Positions 16,562-42,793 of a stretch of DNA of 64,000 bases are shown piece by piece. The stretch lies in IMG/VR virus record IMGVR_UViG_3300035691_000004, positions 877 through 64,876 of that record. One strand, 5' to 3'. Positions within the stretch are counted from its first letter, which is position 1. Every line of letters starts with the position of its first letter. Below the pieces are notes generated by a model, which made no database searches, was not told the DNA's origin, and saw only the letters and a list, made by a program, of their open reading frames with translations. Made by a program: the position numbers and the translations under genes. The DNA comes from a virus (lineage: Duplodnaviria > Caudoviricetes).

Positions 16562-16818
16562 TGGCCCGAGCCACTGCTACGCCCAAGCTCCACGCGGCGA
16601 CGCTCCTGTGGGTGGCACGCGACCTGAGCAAGCGCGCTGAGGAGTTGCGCCTCGTTGCCGCCTCGCCTGGGCAGGACTTCGAATATGCAAGGACGCTCTT
16701 CGCTAGAGCGCTCGAGCTATCCATCGCTGCTCGGCGGATGCGGGCCAAGGCGGGCGCGCGCGGCGCTGCCAAGAGGCGGTCAGCCCCCTCCACAGCTCAA
16801 TTAGGAGAGGGCCGGTGA
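16561..16818 (+). CDS. Hypothetical protein
   Basis: 85 aa, coupled to neighbours. Confidence 0.5.
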   Translation: MARATATPKLHAATLLWVARDLSKRAEELRLVAASPGQDFEYARTLFARALELSIAARRMRAKAGARGAAKRRSAPSTAQLGEGR

Positions 16819-17309
16819 GCGGGCTCAGGACGGTGGCGGACCGATTTTGGGCGAAGGTCGACCGGGAAGGTCCTTTGCTGCGCCCCGAGCTTGGCAAGTG
16901 CTGGGTGTGGACCGCGTCAACAAATCAATGGGGCTACGGGCAGTTCAATGCACGCGAACATCAGTGCACGCTGGCACATCGGTTCGCCTGGCGGTTGTCG
17001 TTCGGCGATGCCAAGGAAATGTGCGTTCTGCATAAGTGCGACAATCCGCGCTGCGTAAATCCGGATCATCTATTCCTCGGAACGCGAACAGAGAACGCGG
17101 CTGACAAGGTGCGCAAGCATCGCCAGAGCCGCATTAGCTTGCCAGGCTCGCGCAATCCGATTGCGAAGCTCTCAGAGGAACAGGTGACACAGATGCGGGC
17201 GCTGGCACGCTCTGGTGTGTCCGGCGCAGAGCTTGGCCGCCGTTTTTCGGTCAGCAAATCAACGGCATGTCGCGCAATCCGCGGAGCCCTCTGGAGGCAC
17301 GTCGCATGA
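16815..17309 (+). CDS. HNH homing endonuclease 1 (HNH_3 type with C-terminal HTH)
   Basis: RFWAKVD, CWVW, AHR, VLHKCDNPRCVNPDHL..GT..EN. Confidence 0.92.
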   Translation: MSGLRTVADRFWAKVDREGPLLRPELGKCWVWTASTNQWGYGQFNAREHQCTLAHRFAWRLSFGDAKEMCVLHKCDNPRCVNPDHLFLGTRTENAADKVRKHRQSRISLPGSRNPIAKLSEEQVTQMRALARSGVSGAELGRRFSVSKSTACRAIRGALWRHVA

Positions 17310-17896
17310 GGACCGTGGCCATTCTTTATTGTGACCCGCGTGGACCGTATCCGAAAATGGAGGCGGTCGACTGCTGGGACGAGGAGCGGGACGCGAAGCT
17401 CTACGACGGGCCGCACCCGGTTGTAGCGCATCCGCCGTGTGGGCCGTGGGGAAGCCTGCGCCGCCAGTACCTCGGCAGCGAACACGCTTGCGCGCCTAGA
17501 GCGGTCGAACAGGTTCGCAAGTTCGGAGGAGTCCTAGAGCACCCGGCGCGCTCCGAGCTCTGGACGCACTGCTACCTGCCGAATCCAGGCGCGCGCGATG
17601 AGCACGGCTTCACGGTCCAGATAGACCAATGCGACTGGGGCCACGTCGCGCGCAAGCCGACCTGGCTCTACGTGATTGGCGTGCTCATGCGCGGCGTACT
17701 CGACGCGATCGACGAGCGCGAAGGGTCCGGAGTTCCGACGCATTGGTGTAGCGGCGGAAGGAACAACAAGACAGGCGGCAGCGTGCCGCCCGGAATAAAG
17801 GTCTGCTCCGCCCAGCAACGCCGCCGCACCCCACCCCTGTTCGCCCAGTTCTTAGTCGACCTGGCACGGGCCAGCCAAATCACGAGGCCCGCATGA
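17306..17896 (+). CDS. Short C5-cytosine methyltransferase-like protein
   Basis: VVAHPPC (motif IV), VLEHP, Q.DWGH..RKPTWL. Confidence 0.65.
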   Translation: MRTVAILYCDPRGPYPKMEAVDCWDEERDAKLYDGPHPVVAHPPCGPWGSLRRQYLGSEHACAPRAVEQVRKFGGVLEHPARSELWTHCYLPNPGARDEHGFTVQIDQCDWGHVARKPTWLYVIGVLMRGVLDAIDEREGSGVPTHWCSGGRNNKTGGSVPPGIKVCSAQQRRRTPPLFAQFLVDLARASQITRPA

Positions 17897-17924
17897 CCCA
17901 ACCAAACCGCCCAGGGGTGACCCA

Positions 17925-18179
17925 ATGACAGGCATGCTCGACTCTGGACGCTATCGTGTCTTCCTGGAGGAGCATTGGCGTGAGCAGGAGCGCGAAATGC
18001 GCGCACAGGGTCTTTTTGACCTCGCGAACGCATTCCAACAATTCGCAGACGGCCTAGCGCGCGAGCTCGGCGTCCCATCTGATGTGACGTGGGTCGACCG
18101 TGGCGTGCTGCGTGACTTTTACCGTCAGATGCGTGGCGAGTGGCACAGTCCAGGGGTGACCTGGGGAGAGGGGTGCTGA
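17925..18179 (+). CDS. Hypothetical protein
   Basis: 84 aa in operon. Confidence 0.5.
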   Translation: MTGMLDSGRYRVFLEEHWREQEREMRAQGLFDLANAFQQFADGLARELGVPSDVTWVDRGVLRDFYRQMRGEWHSPGVTWGEGC

Positions 18180-19115: not shown

Positions 19116-19552
19116 CGGAACACATCCACGAGTTCCATTGGTACCCGGCAGCCGCGAACGAGCAGGGATGGAAGTGCTGCTTCTGCGACGAGCGACCGGG
19201 GGAGCCGCCGGGATTCTCGCCGCGACTCGACCGCGAGAGGCTCGACGCCAAGGTGTTCGCGCTGATCGATGAGATGCACAACTCGAAGCTGATTCATGTC
19301 TCGAACGGCAGTGAGGGCGACTACCTGATCGGACAACTACGCAAGCGGTGCGCCGCCGAGGACCGGTTCGACCAGCAGTCGATCTTGCTGTTCCTGCTCG
19401 AGCTCGATACGCAGAGCCACGCCGCCTATTGGCAGAAGATCAGCAACGCGATCCTAGCCGGCAAGGACGAACGCAAGCGCTGCGAGTGCGGGAAGCTCGC
19501 CAACGTGTTCAGCGGCGACAAGGCATTTTGCTCGGAGCACTGGAAGCTATGA
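19112..19552 (+). CDS. Hypothetical protein with Cys pairs
   Basis: 146 aa, coupled. Confidence 0.6.
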   Translation: MTEHIHEFHWYPAAANEQGWKCCFCDERPGEPPGFSPRLDRERLDAKVFALIDEMHNSKLIHVSNGSEGDYLIGQLRKRCAAEDRFDQQSILLFLLELDTQSHAAYWQKISNAILAGKDERKRCECGKLANVFSGDKAFCSEHWKL

Positions 19553-19749
19553 GCAAAGTCCTCCACCCGCCCTTCCCGTCGCGACCCAAGTCCGGAGACC
19601 CCAGTGCCGCCAGTGCCCGCGATGGGCGCGTTCGCTTCGAGTGGCCCGAGCCGATCACGGAGTGGAACCTGTCACCCGAAGACGCTCGAAAGTGGGGCGA
19701 CCGGCTACTCACGTTTGCGGAGACGGCGGAGGAGCAGGCGGATGGCTAG
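19549..19749 (+). CDS. Small hypothetical protein
   Basis: ATGA overlap. Confidence 0.5.
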   Translation: MSKVLHPPFPSRPKSGDPSAASARDGRVRFEWPEPITEWNLSPEDARKWGDRLLTFAETAEEQADG

Positions 19750-20371
19750 CGTGATCTACCGCGACGAGATCTCCGAAGTCGTCCACGGCAATTGCCTGGT
19801 GGCGCCTCGCATCTCGCTGCAACGAGTGAGCGCCTGCGATCTTCCGCTGCCGACTACCGACAGTGAATGGTTGGAGCGGGCGCGCATGCAGTCGGCGCGC
19901 TTTTGGTCGAAGATGGATCGCTCGGACAACGGCGCATGTTGGGCGTGGCTTGCTGGCAAGGATTCGGGCGGCTATGGGAAGTTTCAGATCACTGGACGAG
20001 GCCCGCGTTTCCTGGGTGATCACCCGATACAGAAGCACGTCCGCGCGCACCGGCTCGCCTATGAATTGACTCACGGCCTAGTCAACCAAGAGCTTGTCAT
20101 GCGTCACAGGTGCGACAATCCGCCCTGCTGCAACCCTGCTCATCTGGAGCCCGGAACCCAGAAACAGAATCGACAGGATGCCGTGCAGCGCGGCCGCGAG
20201 CCGCGTGGTGTTCAGAAAACGATCGCCAAGATCGATGAGTCCACGGTCGCGGAGATAAGACGTTTGCGCGAATCTGGCCTGGGCCCGATCAAGATCGCTC
20301 AAGAGCTTGGCCTAACATCAGGCATCGTGTGCGGAGTCTACTACGGTCGCACATGGAGGCACGTGTCGTGA
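19742..20371 (+). CDS. HNH homing endonuclease 2, fused to a methylase N-terminal stub
   Basis: RFWSKMD, CWAW, AHRLAY, MRHRCDNPPCCNPAHLEPGT..N. Confidence 0.92.
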   Translation: MASVIYRDEISEVVHGNCLVAPRISLQRVSACDLPLPTTDSEWLERARMQSARFWSKMDRSDNGACWAWLAGKDSGGYGKFQITGRGPRFLGDHPIQKHVRAHRLAYELTHGLVNQELVMRHRCDNPPCCNPAHLEPGTQKQNRQDAVQRGREPRGVQKTIAKIDESTVAEIRRLRESGLGPIKIAQELGLTSGIVCGVYYGRTWRHVS

Positions 20372-21228
20372 GGCCGTCAGTAATATATTCTGACGAGTCG
20401 TCAGAAGTGTGGCACGCGGACAGCCTAGACCCGCAAACGCCCGAGCTGGTTCTCAAGGGGCGTCCGGCGGATGCACTGATCTTCGACGCGCCTTTTTCGG
20501 CCAAGACGCACGACGGCCACAAGAACGGGAAGCTGACGGCGGACAGGGCGGCGGCGTTTGCTGCCGACCCTGAAAATGACGCGCAGGGTGGCGCGCTCAA
20601 GCGGTACGCCGCGCGCAAGTCCGAAGCCGGCGAGAGCGGACGCCGCGACATCAACTACGACGCGTTCGACGCCGAACAAATCTCCGCATTCTGCGATATC
20701 TGGCTGCCCAACACACGCGGCTGGGTCGTGAGCATCACCGATGATCAGCTCGCCCCGCTCTGGGGCGCCGCATTCGAGGCTGCAGAGCTATACGTGTTCG
20801 CCCCGCTCCCTCTCGTCGAGACCGGCTCGCGTGTCCGGATGACCGGTGATGGGCCGAGCAACTGGACGTGCTGGATCGTGGTTGCTCGCCCGAAGACTCG
20901 CGAGTTTGCGTCTTGGGGAACGCTCCCTGGCGCCTACGTGCAGGCTGCCGAGCGCGACATCAACAGTCACGGCGGGAGCGATCGGATCGTGGGCGGGAAG
21001 CCCGAGCGGGCAATGTGTGGAATCGTCCGCGACTACTCGCGGCGCGGCGATCTCGTTGTCGATCCGTGCGCTGGCGGTGGCACTACCTTGATCGCGGCGA
21101 AGCAGCTCGGCCGGCGATCGCTCGGCATGGAGCTGGACGCGGAACGGGCGAAGCTCTGCGCGAAGCGGCTCGGGATTCGGCGCGAGCAGTTCGACTTGTT
21201 CCAAAGCGAGGCCGCCAATGGGTGGTAG
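20368..21228 (+). CDS. DNA N4/N6 methyltransferase (beta class)
   Basis: DAPF motif IV, GGKP, VVDPCAGGGT. Confidence 0.85.
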   Translation: MRPSVIYSDESSEVWHADSLDPQTPELVLKGRPADALIFDAPFSAKTHDGHKNGKLTADRAAAFAADPENDAQGGALKRYAARKSEAGESGRRDINYDAFDAEQISAFCDIWLPNTRGWVVSITDDQLAPLWGAAFEAAELYVFAPLPLVETGSRVRMTGDGPSNWTCWIVVARPKTREFASWGTLPGAYVQAAERDINSHGGSDRIVGGKPERAMCGIVRDYSRRGDLVVDPCAGGGTTLIAAKQLGRRSLGMELDAERAKLCAKRLGIRREQFDLFQSEAANGW

Positions 21229-21703
21229 GCGCACTCCCCCCACTCCCTTCCGAGTCGACGAGGCGCTGGCTCTCGCCGACGACGTCCTCTCCCGCCCGCC
21301 GGCGCGTCCGCACATCGAGAGGCCGGTAAGGCGGGGAGAGCTTGTGGCGAGGTTCGCGCTGCCGCTTGAGCTGTGCCTCACCACCAACTTCACACGCCAC
21401 GGCCAGGCTTGGCGCCTCGCCAAGCTGAAGAACGACACACTGCTGCTCATGTTGAGCCAGTGTGGCCGCGCGCGCGAGCCGCTCGCAGGGCGCCCCCAGG
21501 TGCTCTGCCTGCGCCTCTCAAGCGCCGAGCCCGACAAGTACAGCGACTGGGCCAAGGTCGCCGTCGACCGGCTCACCAACAAGAACAGCGGACTCGGTTT
21601 CTTGCGCGACGACAAGCCGTCTGCCGCGGAGATTCATCAGTACTGGGAGCCGTGCCCGCCGAAGAAGGGGTGTGTCGTGATTGAGGTTAGGAGCGAGCGA
21701 TGA
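21218..21703 (+). CDS. RusA-like Holliday junction resolvase
   Basis: PD....K.AVDRL...GFLRDD pattern. Confidence 0.6.
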   Translation: MGGRRTPPTPFRVDEALALADDVLSRPPARPHIERPVRRGELVARFALPLELCLTTNFTRHGQAWRLAKLKNDTLLLMLSQCGRAREPLAGRPQVLCLRLSSAEPDKYSDWAKVAVDRLTNKNSGLGFLRDDKPSAAEIHQYWEPCPPKKGCVVIEVRSER

Positions 21704-22353
21704 AAGACCGCGGCGTACGAGGTGACTATGTGGATCGCGCATTCAAGGTTCCGCTGGCGGAGGTCGACACGCGGCCCAGCGTCGGCGCGCTGGTCGATCA
21801 GAAGCGCGCGGTCGCGGACCTGAAGCGGCTCCACGCGCAAAGGCCCATGAAGCCGCCGGTGCGCCACGGAATCCCGACGCTATACCGCGGAACGCTTTTC
21901 CGCAGCCGGCTCGAGGCGACGTGGGCCGCCATGTTCACGGAGCTGAAGATCCCATGGGAGTACGAGCCGCTCGACCTTGCTGGCTACATCCCGGATTTCC
22001 TGCTGAAGTACGAAAAGCACCCGCTGCTGATCGAGATCAAGCCCGCGTGCGAGGACGTCGAGGCGGCGAAGCTCAAGATCGAGTGCTCGGGTTGGGAGCA
22101 TGACGTCGCGATCCTGATCGACGGCGGCTCGAACATCGTCGGGCACATGCGGGACGACGACGTGTGGGATCGGTGCGTCCTTGCCGGCTGCTCGTGCGGC
22201 ATGGCGCAGTTCCTGAGTGAGAGCGGGCGCCATGAGTGTCGTAACTGCGGCGGCGATCGGCGCGAGCTCTGGTTCGCGTTCAACCCCGCGGCAGCGTGGG
22301 CGGACGCCAAGAACAAGACGCAGTGGAACCCGGTGGAGGCGACGATCGAATGA
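21700..22353 (+). CDS. PD-(D/E)XK nuclease-like protein
   Basis: FRSRLEA.WA, WEYEP, YIPDF, IEIKP. Confidence 0.8.
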   Translation: MKDRGVRGDYVDRAFKVPLAEVDTRPSVGALVDQKRAVADLKRLHAQRPMKPPVRHGIPTLYRGTLFRSRLEATWAAMFTELKIPWEYEPLDLAGYIPDFLLKYEKHPLLIEIKPACEDVEAAKLKIECSGWEHDVAILIDGGSNIVGHMRDDDVWDRCVLAGCSCGMAQFLSESGRHECRNCGGDRRELWFAFNPAAAWADAKNKTQWNPVEATIE

Positions 22354-23534
22354 GCGGACGGACTCCCGACGAAGGACGCTACTCGAAGGTCTCCCGCCGC
22401 ATGTGGGACGATCAGAGGTTCCGCGCGCTTTCAAAGCCGCCCCCGAACGCTCAGACGCTGTGGCAGCGATTGCTGACGGGGCCTGAGCTGGGATGCATTC
22501 CAGGCCTGTTCTCGGCCCGCGAGGGTGGCTTGGCCGATGCCCTTGGCTGGCCGGTAGAAGCGTTCCGCGAGTGCTGGAAAGAGATCGCTGGTCAGGACAT
22601 GGCGGAAGCAGACTGGAGAGTCGGGATCGTGTGGCTCCCGAATGCCCTTCAGCACAACGGCCCCACGAGCCCAAACCAAGTGGCGGCATGGCGCAAGGCA
22701 GCAAACGAGCTGCCCGAGTGCCCGCTGCGGCGCAAGGCGATGGCGCACATCGCGCGCATGCTTACCGACAAAGGGCCGGCGTGGATCGCTCCTTGGCGAC
22801 TCGCTGCTGACGCAGATTGGGCCCCAGAAAAGATCCGGAAAGGCACCAGAGACATGGTGCGCGAGCGAGACGGATCGTTCTGCCGCTACTGTGCGCTTCC
22901 GGTGAACTGGAGCGATCGCAAAGGTCCATCCGGGGCTACCTACGATCACGTGGACCCGACTAAGAGTGCGACACCAGACAACATTGTTGTGTCGTGCCGT
23001 GCCTGCAATTCCCAGAAGGGATTCAGGACACCTGCAGAAGCTGGGATGGTTTTGATCCAGATCGGATCTAGATCAGAACTGCTTAATAATCTGGGCACGA
23101 GTCGCAATCAGACTCAGACTCATAAACAAGAATCAGGATCAAGATCGGATCCAGCGGCGGGTCCAACGCTCGCGGACCGTGCGCGCGGCGTGCTCGAGAA
23201 TCCGCACGACGGCCAGTGGCAGAACCCTTCGCGCTGGCCGGAGGTCGTCGCGATTGCCAAGGCTTGGAGCGAACCTTTCGGCATCAAAGACCCGAAGCTA
23301 AGGGATTTTCCCGATGGCGATCGCGACCTCAAGGCGATTTTGCTGGCGCTTGCCGACGGATACGCGGCCGAAGAATTGGTCTCACTCGGCGCAAAAGCTG
23401 CGGCGGATCCGTGGTTCAAAGGCCTGAACAAGCCCGGGCCGAGCACCTTCAGCGCGGTTGTGATCCGGCGACTTCTCGCCGATCGTCCACAGCCCGCGAA
23501 AGCAGAAGCCGACGACGCTTCGGGGTGGGCATGA
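22350..23534 (+). CDS. Replication initiator with internal HNH domain
   Basis: Initiator-like N-terminus (MWDDQRFRALS), RDGSFCRYC..DHV..NIVVSCRACN; upstream of primase/helicase. Confidence 0.7.
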   Translation: MSGRTPDEGRYSKVSRRMWDDQRFRALSKPPPNAQTLWQRLLTGPELGCIPGLFSAREGGLADALGWPVEAFRECWKEIAGQDMAEADWRVGIVWLPNALQHNGPTSPNQVAAWRKAANELPECPLRRKAMAHIARMLTDKGPAWIAPWRLAADADWAPEKIRKGTRDMVRERDGSFCRYCALPVNWSDRKGPSGATYDHVDPTKSATPDNIVVSCRACNSQKGFRTPAEAGMVLIQIGSRSELLNNLGTSRNQTQTHKQESGSRSDPAAGPTLADRARGVLENPHDGQWQNPSRWPEVVAIAKAWSEPFGIKDPKLRDFPDGDRDLKAILLALADGYAAEELVSLGAKAAADPWFKGLNKPGPSTFSAVVIRRLLADRPQPAKAEADDASGWA

Positions 23535-25934: not shown

Positions 25935-26130
25935 GCAATACATCGGACATCGGACTTGGCCTATACCAATTCTTAGCGCGCGAGCTACGAGGGAAAGGCA
26001 TGCGGGTTAGGAGCTCGCACGGAACGATTGTCGTTACCGCGCCGCGCAACTCGACGCCGCTCTACCGAATCACTCGCCGCAAGCCGCGAGTCCCACCCGA
26101 AGCCCGCCCACTCAGCTGGGGGAGGTTGAA

Positions 26131-26825: not shown

Positions 26826-26918
26826 GCTGAAAAGAAAAACCCCGCCCGCCCCGGCAAGGGCTGAGCGGGGTCTCGGCTCCGATGAACCGCACGCCAGTGC
26901 AACCCAAGGAGCCACAAA

Positions 26919-33117: not shown

Positions 33118-33132
33118 TCGGAGAATCACATC

Positions 33133-33543: not shown

Positions 33544-33555
33544 GGGTAGCCGCCG

Positions 33556-33834
33556 ATGGCCCTCGACATTGCGCCCGTCGAGGGCTTCGTCGCGCTCCAG
33601 ATCGTTGATGACGAGACGGAGGAAGAGCGCGAGCTACGCAAGAATCGAGACTATCCGTCCGATTCTTACAACGAGGCAATCTACGCAATTGTCGTCGGTG
33701 TCGGGCCCAAAGCCCCAGCCGGCGTGAAGAAGGGCGCAACCGTGCTCGTGCGCAAGTACGCGCGGGATGGATTGAGGATCGATGACGATACGGTGCTGGT
33801 CGAGACCTATTGCATCGCTGCCGTTGTGAAATAG
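33556..33834 (+). CDS. GroES/Cpn10-like co-chaperonin
   Basis: 92 aa; IAP....VAL, AIVVGVGP, VKKGATVLVRKY, IAAVVK match the Cpn10 pattern. Confidence 0.75.
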   Translation: MALDIAPVEGFVALQIVDDETEEERELRKNRDYPSDSYNEAIYAIVVGVGPKAPAGVKKGATVLVRKYARDGLRIDDDTVLVETYCIAAVVK

Positions 33835-33895
33835 CGGGCAATACCCGCACTCCAATACGCGACGCCGGCGGTTAATCGGGCGAACTGGAGAGCAC

Positions 33896-34600: not shown

Positions 34601-34641
34601 TCGCTCTGCGAGCTAGCGCGCCCGACAAATAGGAAGAAACC

Positions 34642-35745: not shown

Positions 35746-35754
35746 GGAGGACCC

Positions 35755-36177
35755 ATGGCCAGCAACGCCAGACTCAGAAACGCACAGCAGGCGACCGACC
35801 TGACGCTGAACGGCGTAACCGCCACCAGCGTCGCAGCGGGACCCACCCTGCTGATGTCGAACGTCGAAAAGGGCACACTCAGCGCCAAGACGGTTACTAC
35901 CGCCGAGACCAATACGATCACGCTCACCGTGATCTGGGAGGTTTCGGACGACGCCACGACCTGGGTGCGTGTGAAGAACTTCACCAACACCGCGCCGACC
36001 GTGGTCGGTACCGGCACCGCAGGTGCCGACTCTGCGGTCACCCAACAGAACGACGCGCCCTCGGCCGTATACGGCAAGCGCTATGCACGGTGCTCGATCC
36101 TCGTCGGTGTTACCACCGGCGCATCGAGCGATCTCGCAAACGTCTCATACGACTACGTGCAAGATCAGGGCTTCTAA
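35755..36177 (+). CDS. Probable head decoration protein
   Basis: GAGGAGG SD, Thr-rich. Confidence 0.6.
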   Translation: MASNARLRNAQQATDLTLNGVTATSVAAGPTLLMSNVEKGTLSAKTVTTAETNTITLTVIWEVSDDATTWVRVKNFTNTAPTVVGTGTAGADSAVTQQNDAPSAVYGKRYARCSILVGVTTGASSDLANVSYDYVQDQGF

Positions 36178-36183
36178 ACGCGC

Positions 36184-36789
36184 ATGGCGCTTCTCGATTC
36201 GGAGCTCCAGCGGATCCGCTTCGAGACCGGCTACAATGTTCTGAGCGCTGGCGCTGAGCCGTACGTAAGCTACGTCGCGATCTTCGACGTAGTTGTGCGC
36301 ACGTATCTCAACGCTGGCGCAAAGACTACGAGCTCGACCGCCATCTCAGCGTCGACAACGCCAGCGCTGGTATCTCTAACTCTGGCTAGCGCGGCGGGCT
36401 TCTCGGCTGGTGATCGTGTCTACCTCGATGTCGACGCTCGCCAGGAGTCAGCCATCGTAGAGACGGTTTCGGGCTCCGCGATCACACTGGCGCTCTCGCT
36501 TGCCCACTCCGGGACATATCCGGTTACCGTCGAGGGCGGTGAGGCAATCGTGCGCGAGTGCCTCCGAGACATCCTCGACGCCAAGCAGCGGGCGCGATCC
36601 TGGGGCGGAACAGGCGCGCTCAAGAAGGTAGACGAGGTCGAATTTTATCCTGGCACCGACGGGAAAACCGCCTTTGCCATGGCCGAGTCTGACCTGATGC
36701 TATTGCGCGACCGACTCTGTAGCGCGCTCGGGGTCACAAATCTGTGGCGTGTCCGGGCTGGCGCGGGGCTGTCCATTTCCTCTTACTAG
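36184..36789 (+). CDS. Head-tail adaptor
   Basis: Synteny; KKVDEVEFY. Confidence 0.6.
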   Translation: MALLDSELQRIRFETGYNVLSAGAEPYVSYVAIFDVVVRTYLNAGAKTTSSTAISASTTPALVSLTLASAAGFSAGDRVYLDVDARQESAIVETVSGSAITLALSLAHSGTYPVTVEGGEAIVRECLRDILDAKQRARSWGGTGALKKVDEVEFYPGTDGKTAFAMAESDLMLLRDRLCSALGVTNLWRVRAGAGLSISSY

Positions 36790-36791
36790 CC

Positions 36792-36869
36792 ATGCCCACC
36801 CTAGCCGAATCCCTCCGCCCGCTCGTCTCGAGCATCAGGGCGATCCCGGGGCAGATGGGGACTAGTTGA
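36792..36869 (+). pseudogene. Orphaned 5' stub of the 37609 gene (MPTLAESLRPLVSSIRAIPGQMGTS*)
   Basis: 14 of 23 aa identical to the N-terminus of 37609..38046. Confidence 0.8.
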
Positions 36870-36887
36870 AGGTATGCTTATCGCGTT

Positions 36888-37682
36888 ATGGCGATAGCAA
36901 AGGACAGAGATAGACCGTGCACTAGCTGCGGCATGAGCAGCCCGGACGCCTCTTTCTCCAGCAAGCCGGACGGGCATAGGTGCTCGAGATGCAGGGCGTG
37001 CAAAGCCAGAGACGCGAGCGCTAGGCGCGCTGCAAATCCGGAGAAATCCCGAGCAGCTAAGAAGCGCTGGCGAGAACGCCACCCGGATCGGGTACGCGCG
37101 GAGGAACGGAATCGCAAGAGGCGCACTCGACAAGTTTTACCAGGATTTCGAAGGGGCTCATCAGTCGATACCCCAGGAATTCTGCTTTGCGCCGGATGCA
37201 AGCGAGCCCTCCAGAGCAACGACTTTGCGCGCAACTCGAAGAAGAAGAGGGGGCGGCAAAGTCGTTGCAGATCCTGCCAAGCGGCAGACCGCGCACTACG
37301 ATTGGACCGCGAGCGAGAGACCAAAAGGGCTTGGCGCGCCAAGAATAAAGCGCTCACCAACGCGGCTGCTGCACGTAGGCGTGCAGCCTTGCGCGTTGGG
37401 CCCTGCGTGGCGATTGACGCAAAAGCCATAAGAGAGCGCTTCTTAGTTTTTGGCAATCTCTGCGCATATTGCGGTTCCGCAGAGAAGCTCAGCATCGATC
37501 ATGTAAAGCCGCTCGCGCGTGGCGGACTCCATATCCTCGCAAACATTCGACCAGCGTGTCGCTCCTGCAACTGCAGGAAGCGCGACATGGCACCAAAGGA
37601 ATGGTTAGATGCCATCGTTCGCGGAAAGCCTGCGGCCAATGATCAGCTCCGTGAGGTCATTGCCGGGAATTCTCGGACTTAG
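36888..37682 (+). CDS. HNH endonuclease 3 (Zn-ribbon repeats plus McrA-like HNH)
   Basis: CAYCG..SIDHVKPLARGG..NIRPACRSCN. Confidence 0.92.
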   Translation: MAIAKDRDRPCTSCGMSSPDASFSSKPDGHRCSRCRACKARDASARRAANPEKSRAAKKRWRERHPDRVRAEERNRKRRTRQVLPGFRRGSSVDTPGILLCAGCKRALQSNDFARNSKKKRGRQSRCRSCQAADRALRLDRERETKRAWRAKNKALTNAAAARRRAALRVGPCVAIDAKAIRERFLVFGNLCAYCGSAEKLSIDHVKPLARGGLHILANIRPACRSCNCRKRDMAPKEWLDAIVRGKPAANDQLREVIAGNSRT

Positions 37683-38046
37683 GCCTTACAGCGCCTCGAT
37701 CATCACCGGTGCATGGTCGGGCTCAGCCACCGGCAGCGGCGCCGAGACCACGACGACGATCGCGCTCACCGAAGGCAACGGCCAGCCCTGCAAGGTTCGC
37801 TGGCTCAACTCCGAAGAGCTGGCGGTCGGAGACCTCCAGAAGGGCACGATCGAGATCGGCCCCATCACGCCAGGCCCAGGCGGCAACAACCTGCTCTCGC
37901 AGATTCACCCGGCGCTCAGCGCTGGCCAGACGATTCACGTGCTCGTGAACGGTCCCGACCTCGGGACCGCGAAGTTCGAGATCACTTCGTTCAACGCGGA
38001 CCACGCGCTGCACTACACGATTCAGGCGAAGCCAGTAGGAACGTGA
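37609..38046 (+). CDS. Head-closure/neck protein
   Basis: Synteny; AAGGA SD lies inside the HNH3 gene. Confidence 0.65.
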   Translation: MPSFAESLRPMISSVRSLPGILGLRPYSASIITGAWSGSATGSGAETTTTIALTEGNGQPCKVRWLNSEELAVGDLQKGTIEIGPITPGPGGNNLLSQIHPALSAGQTIHVLVNGPDLGTAKFEITSFNADHALHYTIQAKPVGT

Positions 38047-38840
38047 CCGACTCCGCTAACACGATCAACCAGCGCGTTGGCGTGTTCGAGTTCCCGTACT
38101 CAGATACGGACGTCGACAACACCGACAAGACCGTCACGGATCTTGCCCAGTCAACGCTACTCTCGCTGTTCCAGGCGGCCATCAACGACGAGCTGACCGG
38201 TGTTTTCGCGAAGGTGGCCGCCGGCACCGCACTCGATCACGATTCGCTCCCGCTGATTCCAGTGCGCGACGTCTGGCCCGGCCGCTGGTCGCCGCAAGTC
38301 GCCAAGCAGCGCAAAACAACTTTTCCCGTCCTCGCTCTCTATCGCACAGGCGCTCGCGAGTGGAACGAGCTGACGCTGGGCGTCGACCAGGCCACGCAAA
38401 AGTGGGGCATCGACCTCATTCTCGGCCCGGTAGACGTCGGGGACCAGCAGCGCATCGAGCGCATCCTTCCTCGCATCGGCGTGCTCGTTCAGCGCGTGCT
38501 CCGTAACCGCGGGCACAAGTCCTTTCAGTCTGGTGCCTGCCTATGGGGTGTCCAAGAGACCGGCTCGCTCTCCTCAGTCTGGATGGACAAGGACGAGTTT
38601 GGCCCTGCGCAGTTCGTCGGCGACGACGGTGGCGTGACATATCTCGGCTGGTCGGCGCAGCTCACTACTACCGAGGTGGATTCGAACGTCGGCGATGGTG
38701 ACGCTGTCGACCTGCTCGGAACGACTTTCACGTTCGGTGTTGGTGGCAGCGATGGCGTCATCCCAGGCGCAATCACCGCGATCAGCATCGGCGAATTCAG
38801 CTCTGAGTTCAGCAGCGAATTTCGGGTGTTAGGTACATGA
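38043..38840 (+). CDS. Tail terminator-like protein
   Basis: GTG 38043; FPVLALYR; synteny. Confidence 0.6.
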   Translation: MTDSANTINQRVGVFEFPYSDTDVDNTDKTVTDLAQSTLLSLFQAAINDELTGVFAKVAAGTALDHDSLPLIPVRDVWPGRWSPQVAKQRKTTFPVLALYRTGAREWNELTLGVDQATQKWGIDLILGPVDVGDQQRIERILPRIGVLVQRVLRNRGHKSFQSGACLWGVQETGSLSSVWMDKDEFGPAQFVGDDGGVTYLGWSAQLTTTEVDSNVGDGDAVDLLGTTFTFGVGGSDGVIPGAITAISIGEFSSEFSSEFRVLGT

Positions 38841-39343
38841 GCGACACCCAAAAAGACCTGACCGCACTGCTTGCGACGCTGGTCGTGAACAATGCGAGCG
38901 GCGCGATCACGGCGCAAATGATCCGGGACGCGCTTGTGAGCGTACTCGGCGGATACGGCTCGATCTTCATCGACTCTGGCTCAGGATCTCAGGCTGCTAG
39001 CTCCGGCGGCGCGGCCGTCACGCAGCTCACGTCGAGCGGACCGGTCAGCGGGGTCACATTCAACACCGCAGCGGGCACGCTGACCGTAGGCGTTGCCGGA
39101 GACTATCTGGTCGACGCGCGTTGCGAATTCGTCGGCGTTGCGAGCCAGAGCTACACGTTAACCGCTGGCACTGGCCTGGTTGGCGTCGCGCAGGTAAACG
39201 CCGCCGCCGATCGCGCGGTCGCCGCGTTCCAAAACATCGTCACGCTCACCGCCAACCAAACGCTGACGCTGAATGTGTCAAACCCGAGCAACAACGCTTT
39301 CGCGCTGAAGTCCGGACACTGGATGTGCAAGCGAGTTAGCTGA
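38837..39343 (+). CDS. Structural protein (beta-rich)
   Basis: Ser/Gly/Thr-rich, coupled. Confidence 0.6.
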   Translation: MSDTQKDLTALLATLVVNNASGAITAQMIRDALVSVLGGYGSIFIDSGSGSQAASSGGAAVTQLTSSGPVSGVTFNTAAGTLTVGVAGDYLVDARCEFVGVASQSYTLTAGTGLVGVAQVNAAADRAVAAFQNIVTLTANQTLTLNVSNPSNNAFALKSGHWMCKRVS

Positions 39344-39344
39344 T

Positions 39345-39818
39345 GTGTTCGACCTCGCGAAGATCAAGCAGAAACACCAGCATTTCATGGCTGGCTTCAC
39401 GCTCGACGTTGACCGCGCACTTGGCCCCGAGCGGCTGACCGAATTCGAGCAGCGATACGTCGCGCTAAACAGCAAGTTTCATTCGCGGTCCGGCAATCTC
39501 GTCAAGCAGACGAAGGTGAAGGTGGTGCGCACCGGACGTGGCGCGCGCCGTATCCGCAGCACGAACGCAGCGAAGTACGCGGCCGCTCAGGACAGCGGCT
39601 CCGGTCTCTATGGTCCGAAGCGCGCTCAATACCTGATCAGGCCACGCAAGAAGAAGGCCCTCAGGTTCAGCGCCGGCGGCAAGATGGTTTTTGCGAACTA
39701 CGTCGTGCACCCCGGCGTGCGCCCGACTCGCTTTCTCTACAACGCGAACGATGCGGCTTTCCGCGCGGTGCGCGGATGGTTGCTCGAGGCGATGAAACGC
39801 GCAGCGGCTCGATTCTGA
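39345..39818 (+). CDS. Tail completion protein (HK97 gp10-like)
   Basis: SGNL, KYA..D.G, HPG.RP.RFL. Confidence 0.7.
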   Translation: MFDLAKIKQKHQHFMAGFTLDVDRALGPERLTEFEQRYVALNSKFHSRSGNLVKQTKVKVVRTGRGARRIRSTNAAKYAAAQDSGSGLYGPKRAQYLIRPRKKKALRFSAGGKMVFANYVVHPGVRPTRFLYNANDAAFRAVRGWLLEAMKRAAARF

Positions 39819-39830
39819 GAGGGAAAACAC

Positions 39831-40184
39831 ATGATTTTGAAGTTCTACGCCAAGGCCGACGCCTTGCAGCGAGTGCCGAGCTTTCACCCGGCGGTCGGTC
39901 AGCACGATCGCTACGTCGGCCGCGAGCACGATCCGAAGCGCCCCGGCGCATTCCCGGCGACGCGCGAACCGTTCACCTGTGACTCGGAGTCCGAGGACGG
40001 GCGACGGCTGAAGCATCTGCTCTTCCGCGATCACGACCTCTGGGCCGCCGATCAAGCGACCGCCGATTATTGCCAGGTGCCGTTCGTACCCGTCGAGTTC
40101 GACGACGGCGAATGGGTGCCGTCCAAGCCCGCGGCGCGCGCTGAGCCCGCGGCCACCAAGCCCAACAAACCCAAGGACGACTGA
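39831..40184 (+). CDS. Hypothetical protein upstream of sheath
   Basis: SD, coupled to sheath gene. Confidence 0.6.
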   Translation: MILKFYAKADALQRVPSFHPAVGQHDRYVGREHDPKRPGAFPATREPFTCDSESEDGRRLKHLLFRDHDLWAADQATADYCQVPFVPVEFDDGEWVPSKPAARAEPAATKPNKPKDD

Positions 40185-41731
40185 TGAGTCTCATCCCCGT
40201 TACCGGCATTCCGAGCTCGTACCGCACACCTGGCGCCTATGCCGAGATCCTGTTCGCGCAGGGCCCGGGCACGAGCTCCGCGGGTGTCCGCAGCGTCATC
40301 CTCGTCATGCCGATGAGCTCGGCCGGCACCTGGACGGCGAACACCGTCTACGAGGTGAAGAACGAGGGCACGGCGAACGTGGGTGCCGGTGTCGGCTCGC
40401 CGCTTCATCGCGCGTGTCGCGCATTCCTGAAGCGGAACAAGCGCGCGAAGCTCTTTGCTCTGCCCTATTCCGCGAGCTCTGGCGGCTCGCCAGTGGCGGC
40501 CACGGGCACCATCACCTACGCGACGACTGCAACCGCAATCCTGACCACTGAGGTCGACATCTGCGGCGAGACCACGTCGACCAAGATCGCGAGCGGTGAC
40601 ACGGTCACTACGATCGCGACCAATATGGCCGCAGCCATCAATGCCAAGGATTGGTTGCCTGTCACGGCGGCTAACGTGGCCGGCGTGCTCACGCTAACTG
40701 CCAAGATTGCCGGAGCTTCGCAGGGAACCGCAACGATTGGCGTTATTCGCTACCGCGCACGCATCATCGGCTCGGGCGGCACGACCGTCACGACCTCCGG
40801 CGCATTCCTCGGCACTGGCGTGGCAGGCGCGGATGGCACGACCACCGAAGCCGCGAACCTAGCAACCGCGCTCGCTGTGATCGCTGGCGCTCGTTACTAC
40901 TACATCGGCACGTCGCTCTCGGACGCAACGTCGCTCGGCAACCTCAAGACGCACATCGCCGCCAAGTCGAACCCGAGCCCTGGGCTTCGTTCGGTGGGCT
41001 GCTCTGCCTGGACGGGCACGAGCGCGACCGGCATCACGATCGCGCAGGGGCTCAACTACGAGCGCCACCAGATCGTATGGCAGAAGAACAGCGAACATGA
41101 TTATGCCGAGCTCGTCGGCGCGATGCTGGCGACACGGCAGGCCAAAGAAGAGCTCGACGCGACCTTCAACTTCGACAATTACCGTGGCGTCGAGTGGCAG
41201 ATCCTGCCGGCCTATGCGCAGGCGGATTGGCCGACGGACGACGACGCGAACGACGCCATCAACGGTGGCCTGACGCCGATCCAATCGGATGCGGCGGGCT
41301 CGGCGATCACGATGACGATCACCACGCGTTCTAAGAACGCTGCGGGCACCGTCGCCGACTTCCGTGCGGCCGAGACGCATCGCATCTCTGGCGCTGACTT
41401 GTACGTGGACGACACGCTAACCAAGTACGCGCTGGACTATGGCGCCAAGAAGCTCGCGAGTGACCAATTGCTGGCAAACGGCAAGGTCAACACCAACCAA
41501 AAGCAGCGGCCAGGCGTCGTTACTCCGTTCAACTTCCGGCCCTTCATGGTGAAGCAGATTCACGATTTCGTCGAACGGGAGCAACTCCAGGACGAAGACG
41601 CGATGGTCGCTTCGCTACAGATCCAGCGCGACCCCAACAACACGGGGCGGCTCGAGGTCGGCCAAGAGATCCGCGTGATCGACCAGCTGCACCAGGCGAC
41701 GTTCCGATTCGCCGAGACCTCGCCCGGCTGA
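40184..41731 (+). CDS. Tail sheath protein (Mu gpL-like)
   Basis: IPSSYRTPGAYAEI, GVGS.LH, GGLTP, RDPNNTGRL. Confidence 0.9.
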   Translation: MSLIPVTGIPSSYRTPGAYAEILFAQGPGTSSAGVRSVILVMPMSSAGTWTANTVYEVKNEGTANVGAGVGSPLHRACRAFLKRNKRAKLFALPYSASSGGSPVAATGTITYATTATAILTTEVDICGETTSTKIASGDTVTTIATNMAAAINAKDWLPVTAANVAGVLTLTAKIAGASQGTATIGVIRYRARIIGSGGTTVTTSGAFLGTGVAGADGTTTEAANLATALAVIAGARYYYIGTSLSDATSLGNLKTHIAAKSNPSPGLRSVGCSAWTGTSATGITIAQGLNYERHQIVWQKNSEHDYAELVGAMLATRQAKEELDATFNFDNYRGVEWQILPAYAQADWPTDDDANDAINGGLTPIQSDAAGSAITMTITTRSKNAAGTVADFRAAETHRISGADLYVDDTLTKYALDYGAKKLASDQLLANGKVNTNQKQRPGVVTPFNFRPFMVKQIHDFVEREQLQDEDAMVASLQIQRDPNNTGRLEVGQEIRVIDQLHQATFRFAETSPG

Positions 41732-41734
41732 TCC

Positions 41735-42415
41735 GTGCAGGTCTGTACCAAGTGCCGCGAGAGCAAGGCGCTTGACGATTTCTACCTTCTGGCAACCGGT
41801 TGCAGGCGGCGCGAATGCAAGGCCTGTTGTTCCGCTTACGCCAAGGGTCGCCCGGCGTACCAGTACGAACCGAATGCGGACAAGCGGTGCTCGCGCTGCT
41901 TAGCAGTGAAGAAGAACACCGAGTTTGCGCGGAACAAGAACAGCAAACTCGGCACACGCTCTTGGTGCAAAGCCTGCTTCAGCGAGTACTCGAAGGCCGA
42001 CAACAAGGCTCGATATGCGGCGGACCCGGACGCAGCACTAAGGCGCTCAGGTGAATGGGCGGCGCGCAATGGAGCGCTCATCCTTGCAAATCACAGGGCC
42101 AATCGCGCGCGAGATCCGAAGCTATATAACTCGAGCCGCTCTGCTCGATACCAGCGCGAACGCTCAGCTGTCGGCCCCGGGATATCCGCCGAGCAATGGG
42201 CGGAGATACTCGAGATTCACGATCACCGCTGCGCGTACTGCCTGCGAAAGATCGCGCCGCTCCAACTCGACCACGTGATCGCGCTCGCCCGTGGCGGCGA
42301 GCATCACGCTGACAACGCAGTTCCAGCCTGTGTCTCCTGCAACAGCAGCAAGCGCGACAAGGCGATGTTCGAAATCCTAAACCCGCGGCTGCTTGTCGCA
42401 CAACGATCGGTTTAA
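41735..42415 (+). CDS. HNH endonuclease 4 (Zn-ribbon repeats plus McrA-like HNH)
   Basis: CAYC..LDHVIALARGG.H..N.VPACVSCN. Confidence 0.92.
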   Translation: MQVCTKCRESKALDDFYLLATGCRRRECKACCSAYAKGRPAYQYEPNADKRCSRCLAVKKNTEFARNKNSKLGTRSWCKACFSEYSKADNKARYAADPDAALRRSGEWAARNGALILANHRANRARDPKLYNSSRSARYQRERSAVGPGISAEQWAEILEIHDHRCAYCLRKIAPLQLDHVIALARGGEHHADNAVPACVSCNSSKRDKAMFEILNPRLLVAQRSV

Positions 42416-42418
42416 CCC

Positions 42419-42793
42419 ATTTCGGTCCAACAAGACTATGCGCGCCTCCCAGTTTTCTACAATGGGAGCTACCTCAACCAGCTGACCAGCGTCTCACACG
42501 AGACGGACCCCGGCCAGATGCCAGTCAACCTTCTAAACGAGGGGCTCGGTGGCTTCACACCCGGGACCGGCAGCTGCAAGATCACCCTCGGCTTCGCCAT
42601 TCCGATCGGCGGCACCGAGCAGCCATACCAGCAGGACGCGGCGAACGGCGCCTATATCAGGATGCAGCTTGGCGTCGGCGACGTCTCATATATCGGGACC
42701 GGCAAGATTCACAACGTGAAGATCAGCCAGTCCGTGAACGCCGCCGCCGAAGGCACCCTGGACTGGGAAGGCGAGCTCAAGCCGATGAGCTGA
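42419..42793 (+). CDS. Tail tube protein (5' part lacks a canonical start)
   Basis: Frame open from 42416 (PISVQQDYARLPVFYNG...), ATT at 42419, first ATG 42518; lies between sheath and chaperone. Confidence 0.7.
   Translation: MSVQQDYARLPVFYNGSYLNQLTSVSHETDPGQMPVNLLNEGLGGFTPGTGSCKITLGFAIPIGGTEQPYQQDAANGAYIRMQLGVGDVSYIGTGKIHNVKISQSVNAAAEGTLDWEGELKPMS

What the first reader, a model, noticed from the sequence alone, without database searches (positions are those of the whole stretch)
16815..42430. Recurrent 'gene-start replacement' by free-standing HNH endonucleases: candidate intron-less homing system
Seen: all four free-standing HNH genes with visible flanks (16815, 19742, 36888, 41735) have a copy of the downstream gene's N-terminus at or before their own 5' end, and a diverged second copy at their 3' end that starts the target gene. 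The pairs are RTVA/RTVA; SVIYRDEISEVVHGNCL/SVIYSDESSEVWHADSL; MPTLAESLRPLVSSIRAIPGQMG/MPSFAESLRPMISSVRSLPGILG; and SVQ/SVQ. Two different HNH subfamilies show it, and the copies differ at many synonymous positions. Known: free-standing phage HEGs (T4 seg/mob) home without introns, usually from intergenic sites. Inference: these elements insert inside the first codons of a gene, use its RBS or N-terminus, and supply a recoded, possibly cleavage-resistant new start, so no splicing is needed. The RTVA and SVQ cases are short and could be chance on their own.
Basis: partly seen in the sequence, partly recalled or inferred. Interest (0 to 1): 0.88.

Follow-up and report, generated by a model that had tools for sequence, protein, structure and literature searches.

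The report
Homing endonucleases that replace gene starts
In this soil phage, selfish HNH nuclease genes sit just inside the start of ordinary genes, leaving each gene's own first codons as a dead stub and supplying a foreign replacement start, a mirror image of something known from fungal mitochondria.

Summary
The window is a complete 64.9-kb phage record with five free-standing HNH genes. All four quoted peptide pairs are in the sequence, but they differ in weight.

- **Site 3** (stub 36792-36869, HNH 36888-37682, gene 37609-38046): certain. 0 of 275 controls reach its score.
- **Site 2** (stub 19742-19798 fused to the HNH, methylase from 20368): real. 8 of 275 controls reach its score, and homologue evidence supports it.
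- **Site 1** (RTVA): plausible, not proven.
- **Site 4** (SVQ): a 6-of-9-base match, so chance is not excluded.
- **The fifth HNH**: no duplication.

The nearest homologues of the two clear target genes begin like the stubs, not like the working starts. The stub is therefore native, and the working start came in with the nuclease gene. Stubs have host-like codon usage; the working starts have HNH-like usage.

A blind scan of 146 related HNH loci found three more distinct cases, against 0 of 275 controls at that score.

Closest precedents are fungal mitochondrial mobile endonuclease ORFs, which replace gene ends, and the T4 MobA/gene 60 cassette. This is a new variant of a known kind. The same scan has noted this layout on other phage DNA before. 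No cleavage, homing or splicing test was possible here.

The parts
16815..16838 (+). Site 1 candidate stub: GTG start overlapping the stop of the upstream gene (GTGA), then S-G-L-R-T-V-A, fused in frame to HNH1
   Evidence: It matches N-termini found in the target family: M-S-x-L-R-T-V-A in P0184 and P0216 (7 of 8), and 5 of 8 in P0129, the closest homologue. It is not significant on its own.
16815..17309 (+). HNH1, a free-standing HNH_3 endonuclease with a C-terminal HTH. Its last codons W-R-H-V (TGGAGGCACGT) contain GGAGG, 8 bases before the next gene's ATG
   Evidence: Pfam PF13392, E 8.3e-12. PHROG HNH families match from residue 5-6. Junction read.
17306..17896 (+). Site 1 target gene (phrog_12600, function unknown, conserved HPPCGPWG). 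Its ATG overlaps the HNH1 stop (ATGA)
   Evidence: Against P0129 the first 34 residues are 22 of 34 identical and the rest 132 of 161, p 0.036.
19742..19798 (+). Site 2 stub: native methylase start MASVIYRDEISEVVHGNCL. Its ATG overlaps the stop of the upstream gene. It continues in frame into HNH2
   Evidence: 13 of 19 identical to the N-termini of P0009, P0010 and P0011. GC3 0.84.
19799..20371 (+). HNH2 (HNH_3). The conserved core starts near the internal ATG at 19886. It ends W-R-H-V-S with the same GGAGG, 8 bases before the methylase GTG
   Evidence: Pfam PF13392, E 5.3e-9. 33% identical to HNH1. GC3 0.69.
20368..21228 (+). N6/N4 DNA methylase. Its GTG start overlaps the HNH2 stop (GTGA). 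Roughly the first 35 codons are a foreign tract
   Evidence: PF01555. Against P0009 the N-terminus is 12 of 34 identical and the rest 217 of 251, p 5.9e-10. Controls: P0009-P0010 31 of 34, P0009-P0011 23 of 34. GC3 is 0.66 for the first 35 codons and 0.80 for the rest.
36184..36789 (+). Upstream structural gene ('up201'). In relatives it is followed directly by the site 3 target gene
   Evidence: tblastn synteny in L005, L007, L008.
36792..36869 (+). Site 3 stub: a 25-codon ORF (MPTLAESLRPLVSSIRAIPGQMGTS*) beginning 2 bases after the upstream stop
   Evidence: 20 of 23 identical to the N-terminus of P0003. GC3 0.84. A contig from independent run X4 covers 36737-37074 with no differences.
36888..37682 (+). 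HNH3 (HNH/HNH_5 with two Cys-rich modules). Family similarity ends at residue 240, which is base 37608. The last 24 codons overlap the new gene start in another frame
   Evidence: Pfam. L005 carries a 40%-identical HNH at the same junction, ending at the target's ATG. GC3 0.61.
37609..38046 (+). Site 3 target gene (145 aa, tail/neck module). AAGGA lies 8 bases before the ATG. About the first 23 codons are the foreign tract
   Evidence: Against P0003 the N-terminus is 13 of 24 identical and the rest 111 of 120, p 1.9e-5. A contig from run X3 covers 37459-37692 with no differences.
41735..42415 (+). HNH4. Its GTG lies 3 bases after the sheath stop. No demonstrable duplication
   Evidence: Pfam. 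HSP 40, reached by 39 of 275 controls. The sheath-tube junction is empty in L005, L006 and L013.
42419..42793 (+). Tail tube gene. Its conserved N-terminus begins at ATT 42419, 3 bases after the HNH4 TAA and in the same frame. There is no ATG, GTG or TTG until 42518
   Evidence: In the alignment with the tube proteins of L005, L013 and L006, the ATT codon aligns with their start, and D6, R9, L10 and G16 are invariant.
63563..64000 (-). HNH5 (HNH_3). It runs over the record's 127-base terminal repeat. It is translationally coupled on its upstream side and shows no duplication

Best explanation
These are free-standing homing endonuclease genes that entered tightly packed, translationally coupled operons together with the first codons of the donor phage's copy of the target gene.

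Proposed sequence of events (inferred):
1. The nuclease cuts the recipient's gene some 8-25 codons in.
2. The right-hand end of the break finds homology in the donor's gene.
3. Repair synthesis copies leftwards through the donor's gene start and the nuclease gene.
4. The left-hand end has no usable homology and is joined illegitimately.

The result is: upstream gene, native stub, HNH, foreign gene start, native gene body.

The native initiation site now serves the nuclease. At sites 1 and 2 this is an in-frame fusion. At site 3 the 25-codon stub would act as a leader ORF ending 19 bases before the HNH ATG. The 3' end of the HNH carries the Shine-Dalgarno sequence and the start for the target gene, so no splicing is needed.

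Shown: the layout, the native-versus-foreign polarity of the two copies, presence/absence of the HNH at the same junctions in relatives, and recurrence elsewhere.

Inferred: the cut position, the one-sided repair, the translation routes, and resistance of the new start to cleavage.
For: Layout and overlaps.

Significance: site 3 scores 84, reached by 0 of 275 controls; site 2 scores 49, reached by 8 of 275.

Polarity, site 3:
- Stub 3 matches P0003 at 20 of 23. The working start matches it at 12 of 23, while the gene body is 93% identical.

Polarity, site 2:
- Stub 2 matches P0009, P0010 and P0011 at 13 of 19 each.
- The working start is 12 of 34 identical to P0009, against 217 of 251 for the rest, p 5.9e-10.
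- Those three relatives keep 22-31 of 34 N-terminal residues among themselves.

Composition: GC3 of the stubs is 0.84. GC3 of the working starts is 0.66-0.67, close to the HNH genes at 0.61-0.69. GC3 of the gene bodies is 0.80-0.84.

Age of the two copies: third-position identity between them is 8 of 25 and 5 of 17. They are old homologues, not a recent in-place duplication.

Presence/absence in relatives:
- L005 has a related HNH at the same junction without a stub. L007 and L008 are empty.
- L004 has the methylase without an HNH.

Not an assembly error: contigs from two other runs are identical across both site 3 junctions.

Recurrence: 5 of 146 evaluable related HNH loci score 70 or more, against 0 of 275 controls. 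These are 3 distinct cases. L143 has the same layout as site 3.

No intron model: 0 Rfam hits.
Against: - No DNA of a near-identical phage lacking an HNH could be fetched. The polarity argument therefore rests on protein N-termini of homologues whose context is unknown.
- P0002 is 89% identical in the body and has a start closer to the working copy (17 of 23) than P0003 has. Both start types therefore circulate among close relatives, and the direction of transfer is inferred, not seen.
- N-termini of the methylase family are generally more variable than the rest of the protein (rows P0013 and P0014).
- Site 1 fails the unbiased score test. PHROG HNH profiles already align from HNH1 residue 5-6, so RTVA could belong to the nuclease itself.
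- Sites 4 and 5 show no duplication, so the pattern is not universal in this genome.
- The GC3 contrasts rest on 24-35 codons each.
- Nothing here shows that any of these nucleases is active.
Confidence: 0.7

Rival explanations
1. A tandem duplication of the gene start arose in place. An HNH gene later landed between the copies, and the copies then diverged within this lineage.
For: It gives the same gene order. Direct repeats flanking insertions are common. The two copies are in the same orientation and register.
Against: The non-functional stub should then be the more decayed copy. It is instead the one closest to the nearest relatives (20 of 23 and 13 of 19) and has host-like GC3. The selected, working copy is the outlier (12 of 34 against 217 of 251). 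Third positions between the copies are near random while the stub ORF is still intact.
Confidence: 0.08
2. The similarities are chance or compositional, and the HNH genes are ordinary intergenic insertions.
For: This holds for SVQ (6 of 9 bases; 39 of 275 controls reach the best local score) and possibly for RTVA (53 of 275). Site 2 alone is only at the 3% level.
Against: No control reaches the site 3 score (0 of 275). Stubs 2 and 3 match the N-termini of independent database homologues. Both stubs begin exactly where the operon's next start codon should be.
Confidence: 0.1
3. The HNH genes lie in introns, or are skipped by the ribosome, so that the stub is joined to the gene body and the downstream copy is not used.
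For: HNH genes are common in phage group I introns. At site 3 the stub ends where similarity to the working copy ends.
Against: 0 Rfam matches at gathering thresholds across the window. Each downstream copy is a complete N-terminus with a start codon and a well-spaced Shine-Dalgarno sequence. A duplicated exon end is not expected of an intron. The folds around the junctions are not unusual (z from -1.7 to 0).
Confidence: 0.04
4. Assembly chimera: reads of two related phages were joined, which produced the duplicated gene starts.
For: The record is a metagenome assembly, and related strains exist in the same habitat.
Against: Contigs from other runs, assembled separately, match 36737-37074 (X4) and 37459-37692 (X3) without a difference. 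The same layout occurs in unrelated records L143/L146 and L179. For site 2 no listed contig spans a junction.
Confidence: 0.03

Closest known systems
Mobile endonuclease ORFs (mORFs) that form gene hybrids in fungal mitochondria: Allomyces macrogynus atp6; Glomus atp6, atp9, cox2, nad3 (PMC3630166, passages read)
   Same: An endonuclease ORF travels with a foreign copy of a gene terminus. The native terminus is left beside it as a duplicated remnant. The remnant is the copy closest to relatives (91% against 63.5% nucleotide identity in Glomus atp6). [quoted passage not shown] No intron is involved.
   Different: There the 3' end of the gene is replaced and the native remnant lies downstream. 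Here the 5' end is replaced and the remnant lies upstream, so translation initiation has to be solved as well. The nucleases there are LAGLIDADG or GIY-YIG, here HNH. The setting is mitochondria there and a phage here. L046 in IMG/VR is a phage HNH_3 case of the 3'-end kind.
Phage T4 MobA / gene 60 cassette (preprint 10.1101/2022.08.31.505936, passages read; it cites Bonocora et al. 2011, which I did not read)
   Same: An HNH homing endonuclease sits inside a coding sequence without intron or intein. The element brings a homologous replacement ('HomR') for the target segment that holds the nick site, and a new start for the downstream part. The replacement is reported to protect against re-cutting.
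   Different: MobA splits the gene mid-ORF into two polypeptides with added tails. It deletes 55-75 bases of the native sequence rather than leaving a stub. It also carries the 50-base bypass. Here the gene stays whole and the native start is kept as a fossil.
Intronless homing by free-standing phage endonucleases (SegF, SegB, MobE). Sources: PMC12724721 introduction passages; search-listing abstracts of PMC2790892 and PMC2330249
   Same: Free-standing nuclease genes occur sporadically at fixed junctions in related phages. Flanking markers are co-converted. Presence/absence is seen here at the up201/target, sheath/tube and methylase junctions.
   Different: The described cases sit between genes and recombine by homology on both sides, so no duplicated gene end is left.
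Integrating elements that carry a replacement end for the gene they interrupt, such as tRNA 3' halves in attP or lambdoid prophages in icd (recalled, no call)
   Same: The inserted DNA restores the interrupted gene with its own diverged copy of the displaced end.
   Different: That is site-specific recombination by an integrase at a short identical core, at gene 3' ends, and it is reversible. No nuclease-driven gene conversion is involved.

Membership tests
Free-standing homing endonuclease gene (intronless homing) | Encodes a nuclease of a homing-endonuclease family with a DNA-binding part | tested here: met
   PF13392 (HNH1, HNH2, HNH5) and PF01844/PF14279 (HNH3, HNH4), all above the curated cut-offs. 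HNH1 has a C-terminal HTH. HNH3 and HNH4 have Cys-rich modules.
Free-standing homing endonuclease gene (intronless homing) | Sporadic presence or absence at the same junction in related genomes | tested here: met
   up201/target junction: HNH in L005, none in L007 and L008. Sheath/tube junction: none in L005, L006, L013. Methylase without an HNH in L004. All of these relatives are distant (39-60% protein identity).
Free-standing homing endonuclease gene (intronless homing) | Not inside an intron or intein | tested here: met
   0 Rfam hits. The HNH ORFs end with stops and are not in frame with the target body. Unknown intron types cannot be excluded.
Free-standing homing endonuclease gene (intronless homing) | Cuts the allele that lacks it and is copied into the break in mixed infection | not testable with these tools
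   Needs enzyme assays and co-infection. No cultured host or phage is available.
Free-standing homing endonuclease gene (intronless homing) | Co-conversion of flanking target sequence | tested here: met
   The working N-termini are mosaic: 12 of 34 against 217 of 251 (P0009), and 13 of 24 against 111 of 120 (P0003). Their GC3 is HNH-like. Protein-level evidence only.
mORF-type gene hybrid (endonuclease ORF plus foreign gene terminus plus displaced native terminus) | Two copies of one gene terminus bracket the endonuclease ORF | tested here: met
   Sites 2 and 3. Not shown for sites 1, 4 and 5.
mORF-type gene hybrid (endonuclease ORF plus foreign gene terminus plus displaced native terminus) | The displaced copy groups with close relatives and the copy in use does not | tested here: met
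   Based on short peptides. No tree was possible.
mORF-type gene hybrid (endonuclease ORF plus foreign gene terminus plus displaced native terminus) | It is the gene's 3' end that is replaced | tested here: not met
   Here the 5' end is replaced. This is a mirror-image variant, not a member.
mORF-type gene hybrid (endonuclease ORF plus foreign gene terminus plus displaced native terminus) | The hybrid gene is expressed and the displaced end is not part of the product | not testable with these tools
   All runs laid were DNA contigs.

The most novel reading that the evidence does not exclude
Start-replacing HNH cassettes are a general, so far undescribed way for homing endonucleases to invade coding sequence in phages with gap-free operons. 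The cassette parasitises the victim gene's own initiation site, either by fusion or through the stub acting as a leader ORF. It carries a portable ribosome-binding site and a foreign N-terminus for the victim. The stub is a fossil that marks the cut site and the direction of transfer. Target sites and donor-recipient histories could then be read from sequence alone.
Probability: 0.45. Interest if true: 0.7.

Novelty: new variant of a known kind. Interest (0 to 1): 0.6.

Why it matters
It shows how a selfish nuclease gene can enter the coding part of an essential phage gene without an intron, an intein or a split protein. It also shows that one 65-kb genome can hold two or three such events from two nuclease subfamilies.

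The stubs give a free, sequence-only read-out of where the break or junction was and of which copy is native. That makes target sites of uncharacterised HNH enzymes predictable and testable.

It matters for annotation as well. Short 'orphan' ORFs and odd N-terminal extensions on HNH genes can be displaced gene starts. The source's own gene call for the methylase (P0008) starts 13 codons downstream of the GTG at 20368. Mosaic N-termini can also mislead phylogenies.

Tried and rejected
1. INPHARED phages, blastn 'distant', with both clear sites: no match.

2. IMG/VR, JGI metagenomes and GTDB genomes, searched with the target proteins. Only distant relatives were found (39-60% identity). No DNA-level empty allele was found.

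3. Public runs. Four runs were laid on 19200-39199. Their contigs are short (about 170-500 bases) and either identical or unrelated. None of the 7 listed joints skips an HNH; they skip 778-11585 bases, with sides of 20-22 letters. This says nothing about whether empty alleles exist.

4. DNA-level local alignment of stub against working start: no better than shuffles. The duplication is visible only as protein.

5. Hairpins at the junctions: z from -1.7 to 0, nothing notable. Promoter and terminator scan of 36000-43000: no more than in shuffles.

6. 'Portable RBS' idea. The W-x-H-V C-terminus is a family motif: 29 of 69 distinct relatives have W[RKQ]H[VIL]. Only 2 of 69 encode it as TGGAGGCA. 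The GGAGG is therefore a local feature of HNH1 and HNH2, not a family trait. It is suggestive only.

7. L076 and L093 (scores 55 and 51) were not counted as cases. 5 and 7 of 275 controls reach those scores, and the L076 region looks non-coding.

8. 14 of the 160 fetched HNH loci were dropped before the count because a flank was too short or the ORF ran off the locus.

9. Literature. Searches, and passages of PMC10448857, PMC12724721 and PMC2248197, gave no description of a native N-terminal stub plus replacement start around a phage HEG. The library is partial and supplements were closed, so this is not proof of absence.

10. The search of protein representatives, structure prediction, complex prediction and the protein-atlas search were not used. 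None would bear on the question.


Full report
**What the window is.** The window is bases 877-64876 of a 64,876-base IMG/VR virus record with a 127-base direct terminal repeat. CheckV rates it complete. It is 64% G+C. It has a contractile-tail module, with the sheath at 40184-41731 and the tube ending at 42793. It has no match in the INPHARED phage collection. Genes on the plus strand are packed with overlapping stops and starts.

**The nuclease genes.** Pfam finds five free-standing HNH genes.
- HNH1 (16815-17309), HNH2 (19742-20371) and a minus-strand HNH5 (63563 to the record end) belong to PF13392 HNH_3.
- HNH3 (36888-37682) and HNH4 (41735-42415) belong to PF01844/PF14279.
- HNH1 and HNH2 are 33% identical, and HNH3 and HNH4 are 35% identical.
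- A sixth HNH domain sits inside a 412-aa DnaD-like protein (22296-23534). It is not a free-standing element.

**Checking the observation.** All four quoted pairs are in the sequence. I scored them with one unbiased measure. This was the best ungapped BLOSUM62 segment between all three frames of the region around the HNH start and all three frames of the 300 bases around the HNH stop. I compared it with 275 control region pairs taken from 146 related HNH loci.

| Site | Best score | Controls reaching it |
|---|---|---|
| 3 | 84 | 0 of 275 |
| 2 | 49 | 8 of 275 |
| 1 | 38 (an off-frame hit, not RTVA) | 53 of 275 |
| 4 | 40 (not SVQ) | 39 of 275 |
| HNH5, read across the circular join | 37 | 75 of 275 |

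In a whole-window scan of all frame pairs 120-2100 bases apart, the site 3 pair is the best hit that is neither a tandem repeat nor low-complexity sequence.

At the DNA level the copies are barely alike.
- Site 3: 40 of 75 bases identical, third positions 8 of 25. 10 of the 14 shared residues use different codons.
- Site 2: 28 of 51 bases identical, third positions 5 of 17. 7 of the 11 shared residues use different codons.
- Local DNA alignment is no better than shuffles.

RTVA is rare: 8 occurrences in the six-frame translation, with LRTVA only at 16824. It is still only four residues. SVQ is a 6-of-9-base match whose upstream S codon is non-coding.

**Which copy is native.** This is the central result.
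- Site 3. The 145-aa gene has seven database relatives. P0003 is 93% identical over residues 25-145. Its first 23 residues match the stub at 20 of 23 and the working start at 12 of 23 (Fisher p 1.9e-5 for N-terminus against rest).
- Site 2. The three nearest methylase relatives, P0009, P0010 and P0011 (80, 76 and 70% identical), all begin M-A-E-L-V-Y-R-D-D-L-S-E-V-V-H-G-D-C-L or similar. They match stub 2 at 13 of 19. The working start is 12 of 34 identical to P0009 while the rest is 217 of 251 (p 5.9e-10).
- Control. Those three relatives keep 22-31 of 34 N-terminal residues among themselves at 75-83% identity elsewhere.
- Codon usage agrees. GC3 is 0.84 in both stubs and 0.80-0.84 in the gene bodies. 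It is 0.66-0.67 in the working starts and 0.61-0.69 in the HNH genes.

So the stubs are the phage's own gene starts, and the working starts came in with the nuclease genes.

A caveat applies. P0002 (89% identical in the body) has a start nearer the working copy (17 of 23). Both start types therefore circulate among close relatives.

**Site 1.** HNH1 begins with the GTG that overlaps the upstream stop, preceded by AGGAGAGG, and reads V-S-G-L-R-T-V-A before the conserved D-R-F-W.
- The target family (phrog_12600; 119 homologues read) often begins M-R-T-V-A. In several members it begins M-S-x-L-R-T-V-A: P0184 and P0216 match the stub at 7 of 8, and the closest homologue P0129 reads M-T-A-E-L-R-T-V-A.
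- The working start M-R-T-V-A-I-L-Y-C-D-P is shared with P0230, which is only 60% identical elsewhere. P0129 drops from 82% to 65% over the first 34 residues (p 0.036).
- This fits the pattern but does not prove it. PHROG HNH profiles already align from HNH1 residue 5-6.

**Site 4.** HNH4 starts 3 bases after the sheath stop. Relatives L005, L013 and L006 have no HNH there. Their tube proteins align with the window's tube frame from the ATT at 42419, which is 3 bases after the HNH4 TAA and in the same frame. D6, R9, L10 and G16 are invariant. HNH4 therefore sits exactly at the tube gene's start, and the tube gene has no canonical start codon before 42518. A two-codon stub (GTG CAG) cannot be told from chance.

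**Junction anatomy**.
- Every HNH begins where the next cistron's start should be: GTGA overlap at site 1; ATG overlapping the upstream TAG at site 2; the stub 2 bases after the upstream stop and the HNH ATG 19 bases after the stub's stop at site 3; 3 bases after the upstream stop at site 4.
- Every target restarts at the HNH stop: ATGA, GTGA, a 74-base overlap, and TAA-CCC-ATT.
- HNH1 and HNH2 both end W-R-H-V, encoded TGGAGGCACGT. That places GGAGG 8 bases before the target's start.
- The protein motif is common in the family (29 of 69 distinct relatives). This particular encoding is rare (2 of 69).
- Family similarity of HNH3 ends at residue 240, exactly at the target's ATG. Its last 24 codons are read-through into the new start. 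In L005 the related HNH stops at the target's ATG.

**Mechanism.** The best fit is ordinary nuclease-driven gene conversion from a diverged donor in which only the right side had homology.
- The upstream genes of available relatives are about 50% identical or less, too little for recombination.
- At site 3 the foreign tract ends where the stub ends. That is what a break at about codon 23-25, copied from the donor and joined illegitimately on the left, would give.
- At site 2 the foreign tract runs about 15 codons beyond the stub's end. That fits either co-conversion to the right or resection of the left end.
- These steps are inferred, as is translation of HNH3 by re-initiation after the stub ORF.

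**Rivals.**
- In-place duplication and divergence predicts that the stub is the decayed copy. The opposite is seen.
- Chance is excluded for site 3 and unlikely for site 2.
- An intron or ribosomal bypass is unsupported (0 Rfam hits; complete downstream starts).
- An assembly chimera is unlikely. Contigs from runs X4 (36737-37074) and X3 (37459-37692) are identical across both site 3 junctions.

**Recurrence elsewhere.** I fetched 160 IMG/VR loci carrying relatives of the two HNH families. Of these, 146 could be evaluated. Five score 70 or more, against 0 of 275 controls. They amount to three distinct cases.
- L143/L146: a 36-codon stub ORF, an HNH, then a GT2 glycosyltransferase restarting inside the HNH 3' end. 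This is the same layout as site 3. 26 of 41 residues and 75 of 123 bases are identical.
- L179: 16 of 17 residues identical, with 10 of them on different codons.
- L046/L047: a 3'-end version.

**Comparison with what is known.**
- Fungal mitochondrial mORFs carry a foreign gene C-terminus and leave the native one as a duplicated remnant that is closest to relatives (PMC3630166, passages). This is the mirror image of the present case.
- The T4 MobA element brings a homologous replacement for the nicked target segment and a new start for gene 60 (preprint 10.1101/2022.08.31.505936, passages).
- Intronless homing of Seg and Mob enzymes is intergenic (PMC12724721 passages; PMC2790892 and PMC2330249 listing abstracts).
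- My searches and the passages read in PMC10448857, PMC12724721 and PMC2248197 gave no phage description of a retained native start stub plus replacement start. The library is partial and supplements were closed.
- This scan's own notes record the same layout on other phage DNA, with the same mitochondrial comparison. I had reached that comparison independently.

**Verdict.** This is a new variant of a known kind. It is of real interest to people who study homing endonucleases and phage mosaicism, but it is not a new kind of system.

Noticed in passing
window 42413-42520: The tail tube gene has no ATG, GTG or TTG at its conserved N-terminus. The codon aligned with the relatives' start is ATT (42419), 3 bases after the HNH4 TAA and in the same frame. 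The next ATG (42518) would remove 33 conserved residues. The tube may be started by re-initiation at AUU or made by read-through.
   Followed up: partly
L143 640-2214 (also L146): Independent example in an IMG/VR contig: a 36-codon stub ORF of a GT2 glycosyltransferase start, an HNH (873-1481), then the full gene restarting at 1441 inside the HNH 3' end. 26 of 41 residues are identical, 14 of them on different codons.
   Followed up: partly
L046 2159-3051 (also L047): An HNH_3 gene is bracketed by two copies of a gene's last 30 codons. One copy ends the upstream 97-aa ORF. The other is a 33-codon ORF whose ATG overlaps the HNH stop. This is the 3'-end layout known from fungal mitochondria, here in a phage.
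   Followed up: partly
L179 1944-2745: An HNH is flanked by PAPSVLPGRAFQNTARK and PAPTVLPGRAFQNTARK: 16 of 17 residues identical but only 39 of 51 bases, with 10 shared residues on different codons. The downstream copy follows an ATG that overlaps the HNH stop.
   Followed up: no
window 20368-20410: The gene call held in the protein collection for the methylase (P0008, 273 aa) starts at V-W-H-A-D-S-L. That is 13 codons inside the N-terminus that homologues conserve. The GTG at 20368, with GGAGG 8 bases upstream, fits better.
   Followed up: partly
window 22296-23534: A 412-aa protein with a DnaD-like N-terminal part and an internal HNH domain. It is probably a replication protein and not a mobile nuclease gene.
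   Followed up: no
window 17306-17896: The site 1 target belongs to a very large phage family of unknown function (phrog_12600; 7955 hits at E 0.001 or better among 8000 scored candidates) with an invariant-looking V-A-H-P-P-C-G-P-W-G motif.
   Followed up: no
window 50094-50363, 54455-54770, 59000-59700, 46340-46780, 10740-10912: Internal tandem or dispersed peptide repeats (for example IPFPSLTLPSLP twice, and TSPDG-x-TW-T-ART three times), Gly- and Pro-rich tracts, and an Arg-Ser/Leu-Arg repeat. They look like tail-fibre-type repeats and low-complexity sequence.
   Followed up: no
window 63563-64000 and record start: The fifth HNH_3 gene runs across the record's 127-base terminal repeat. Its ATG overlaps the stop of the upstream gene by 8 bases. 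It has no duplicated gene end.
   Followed up: yes
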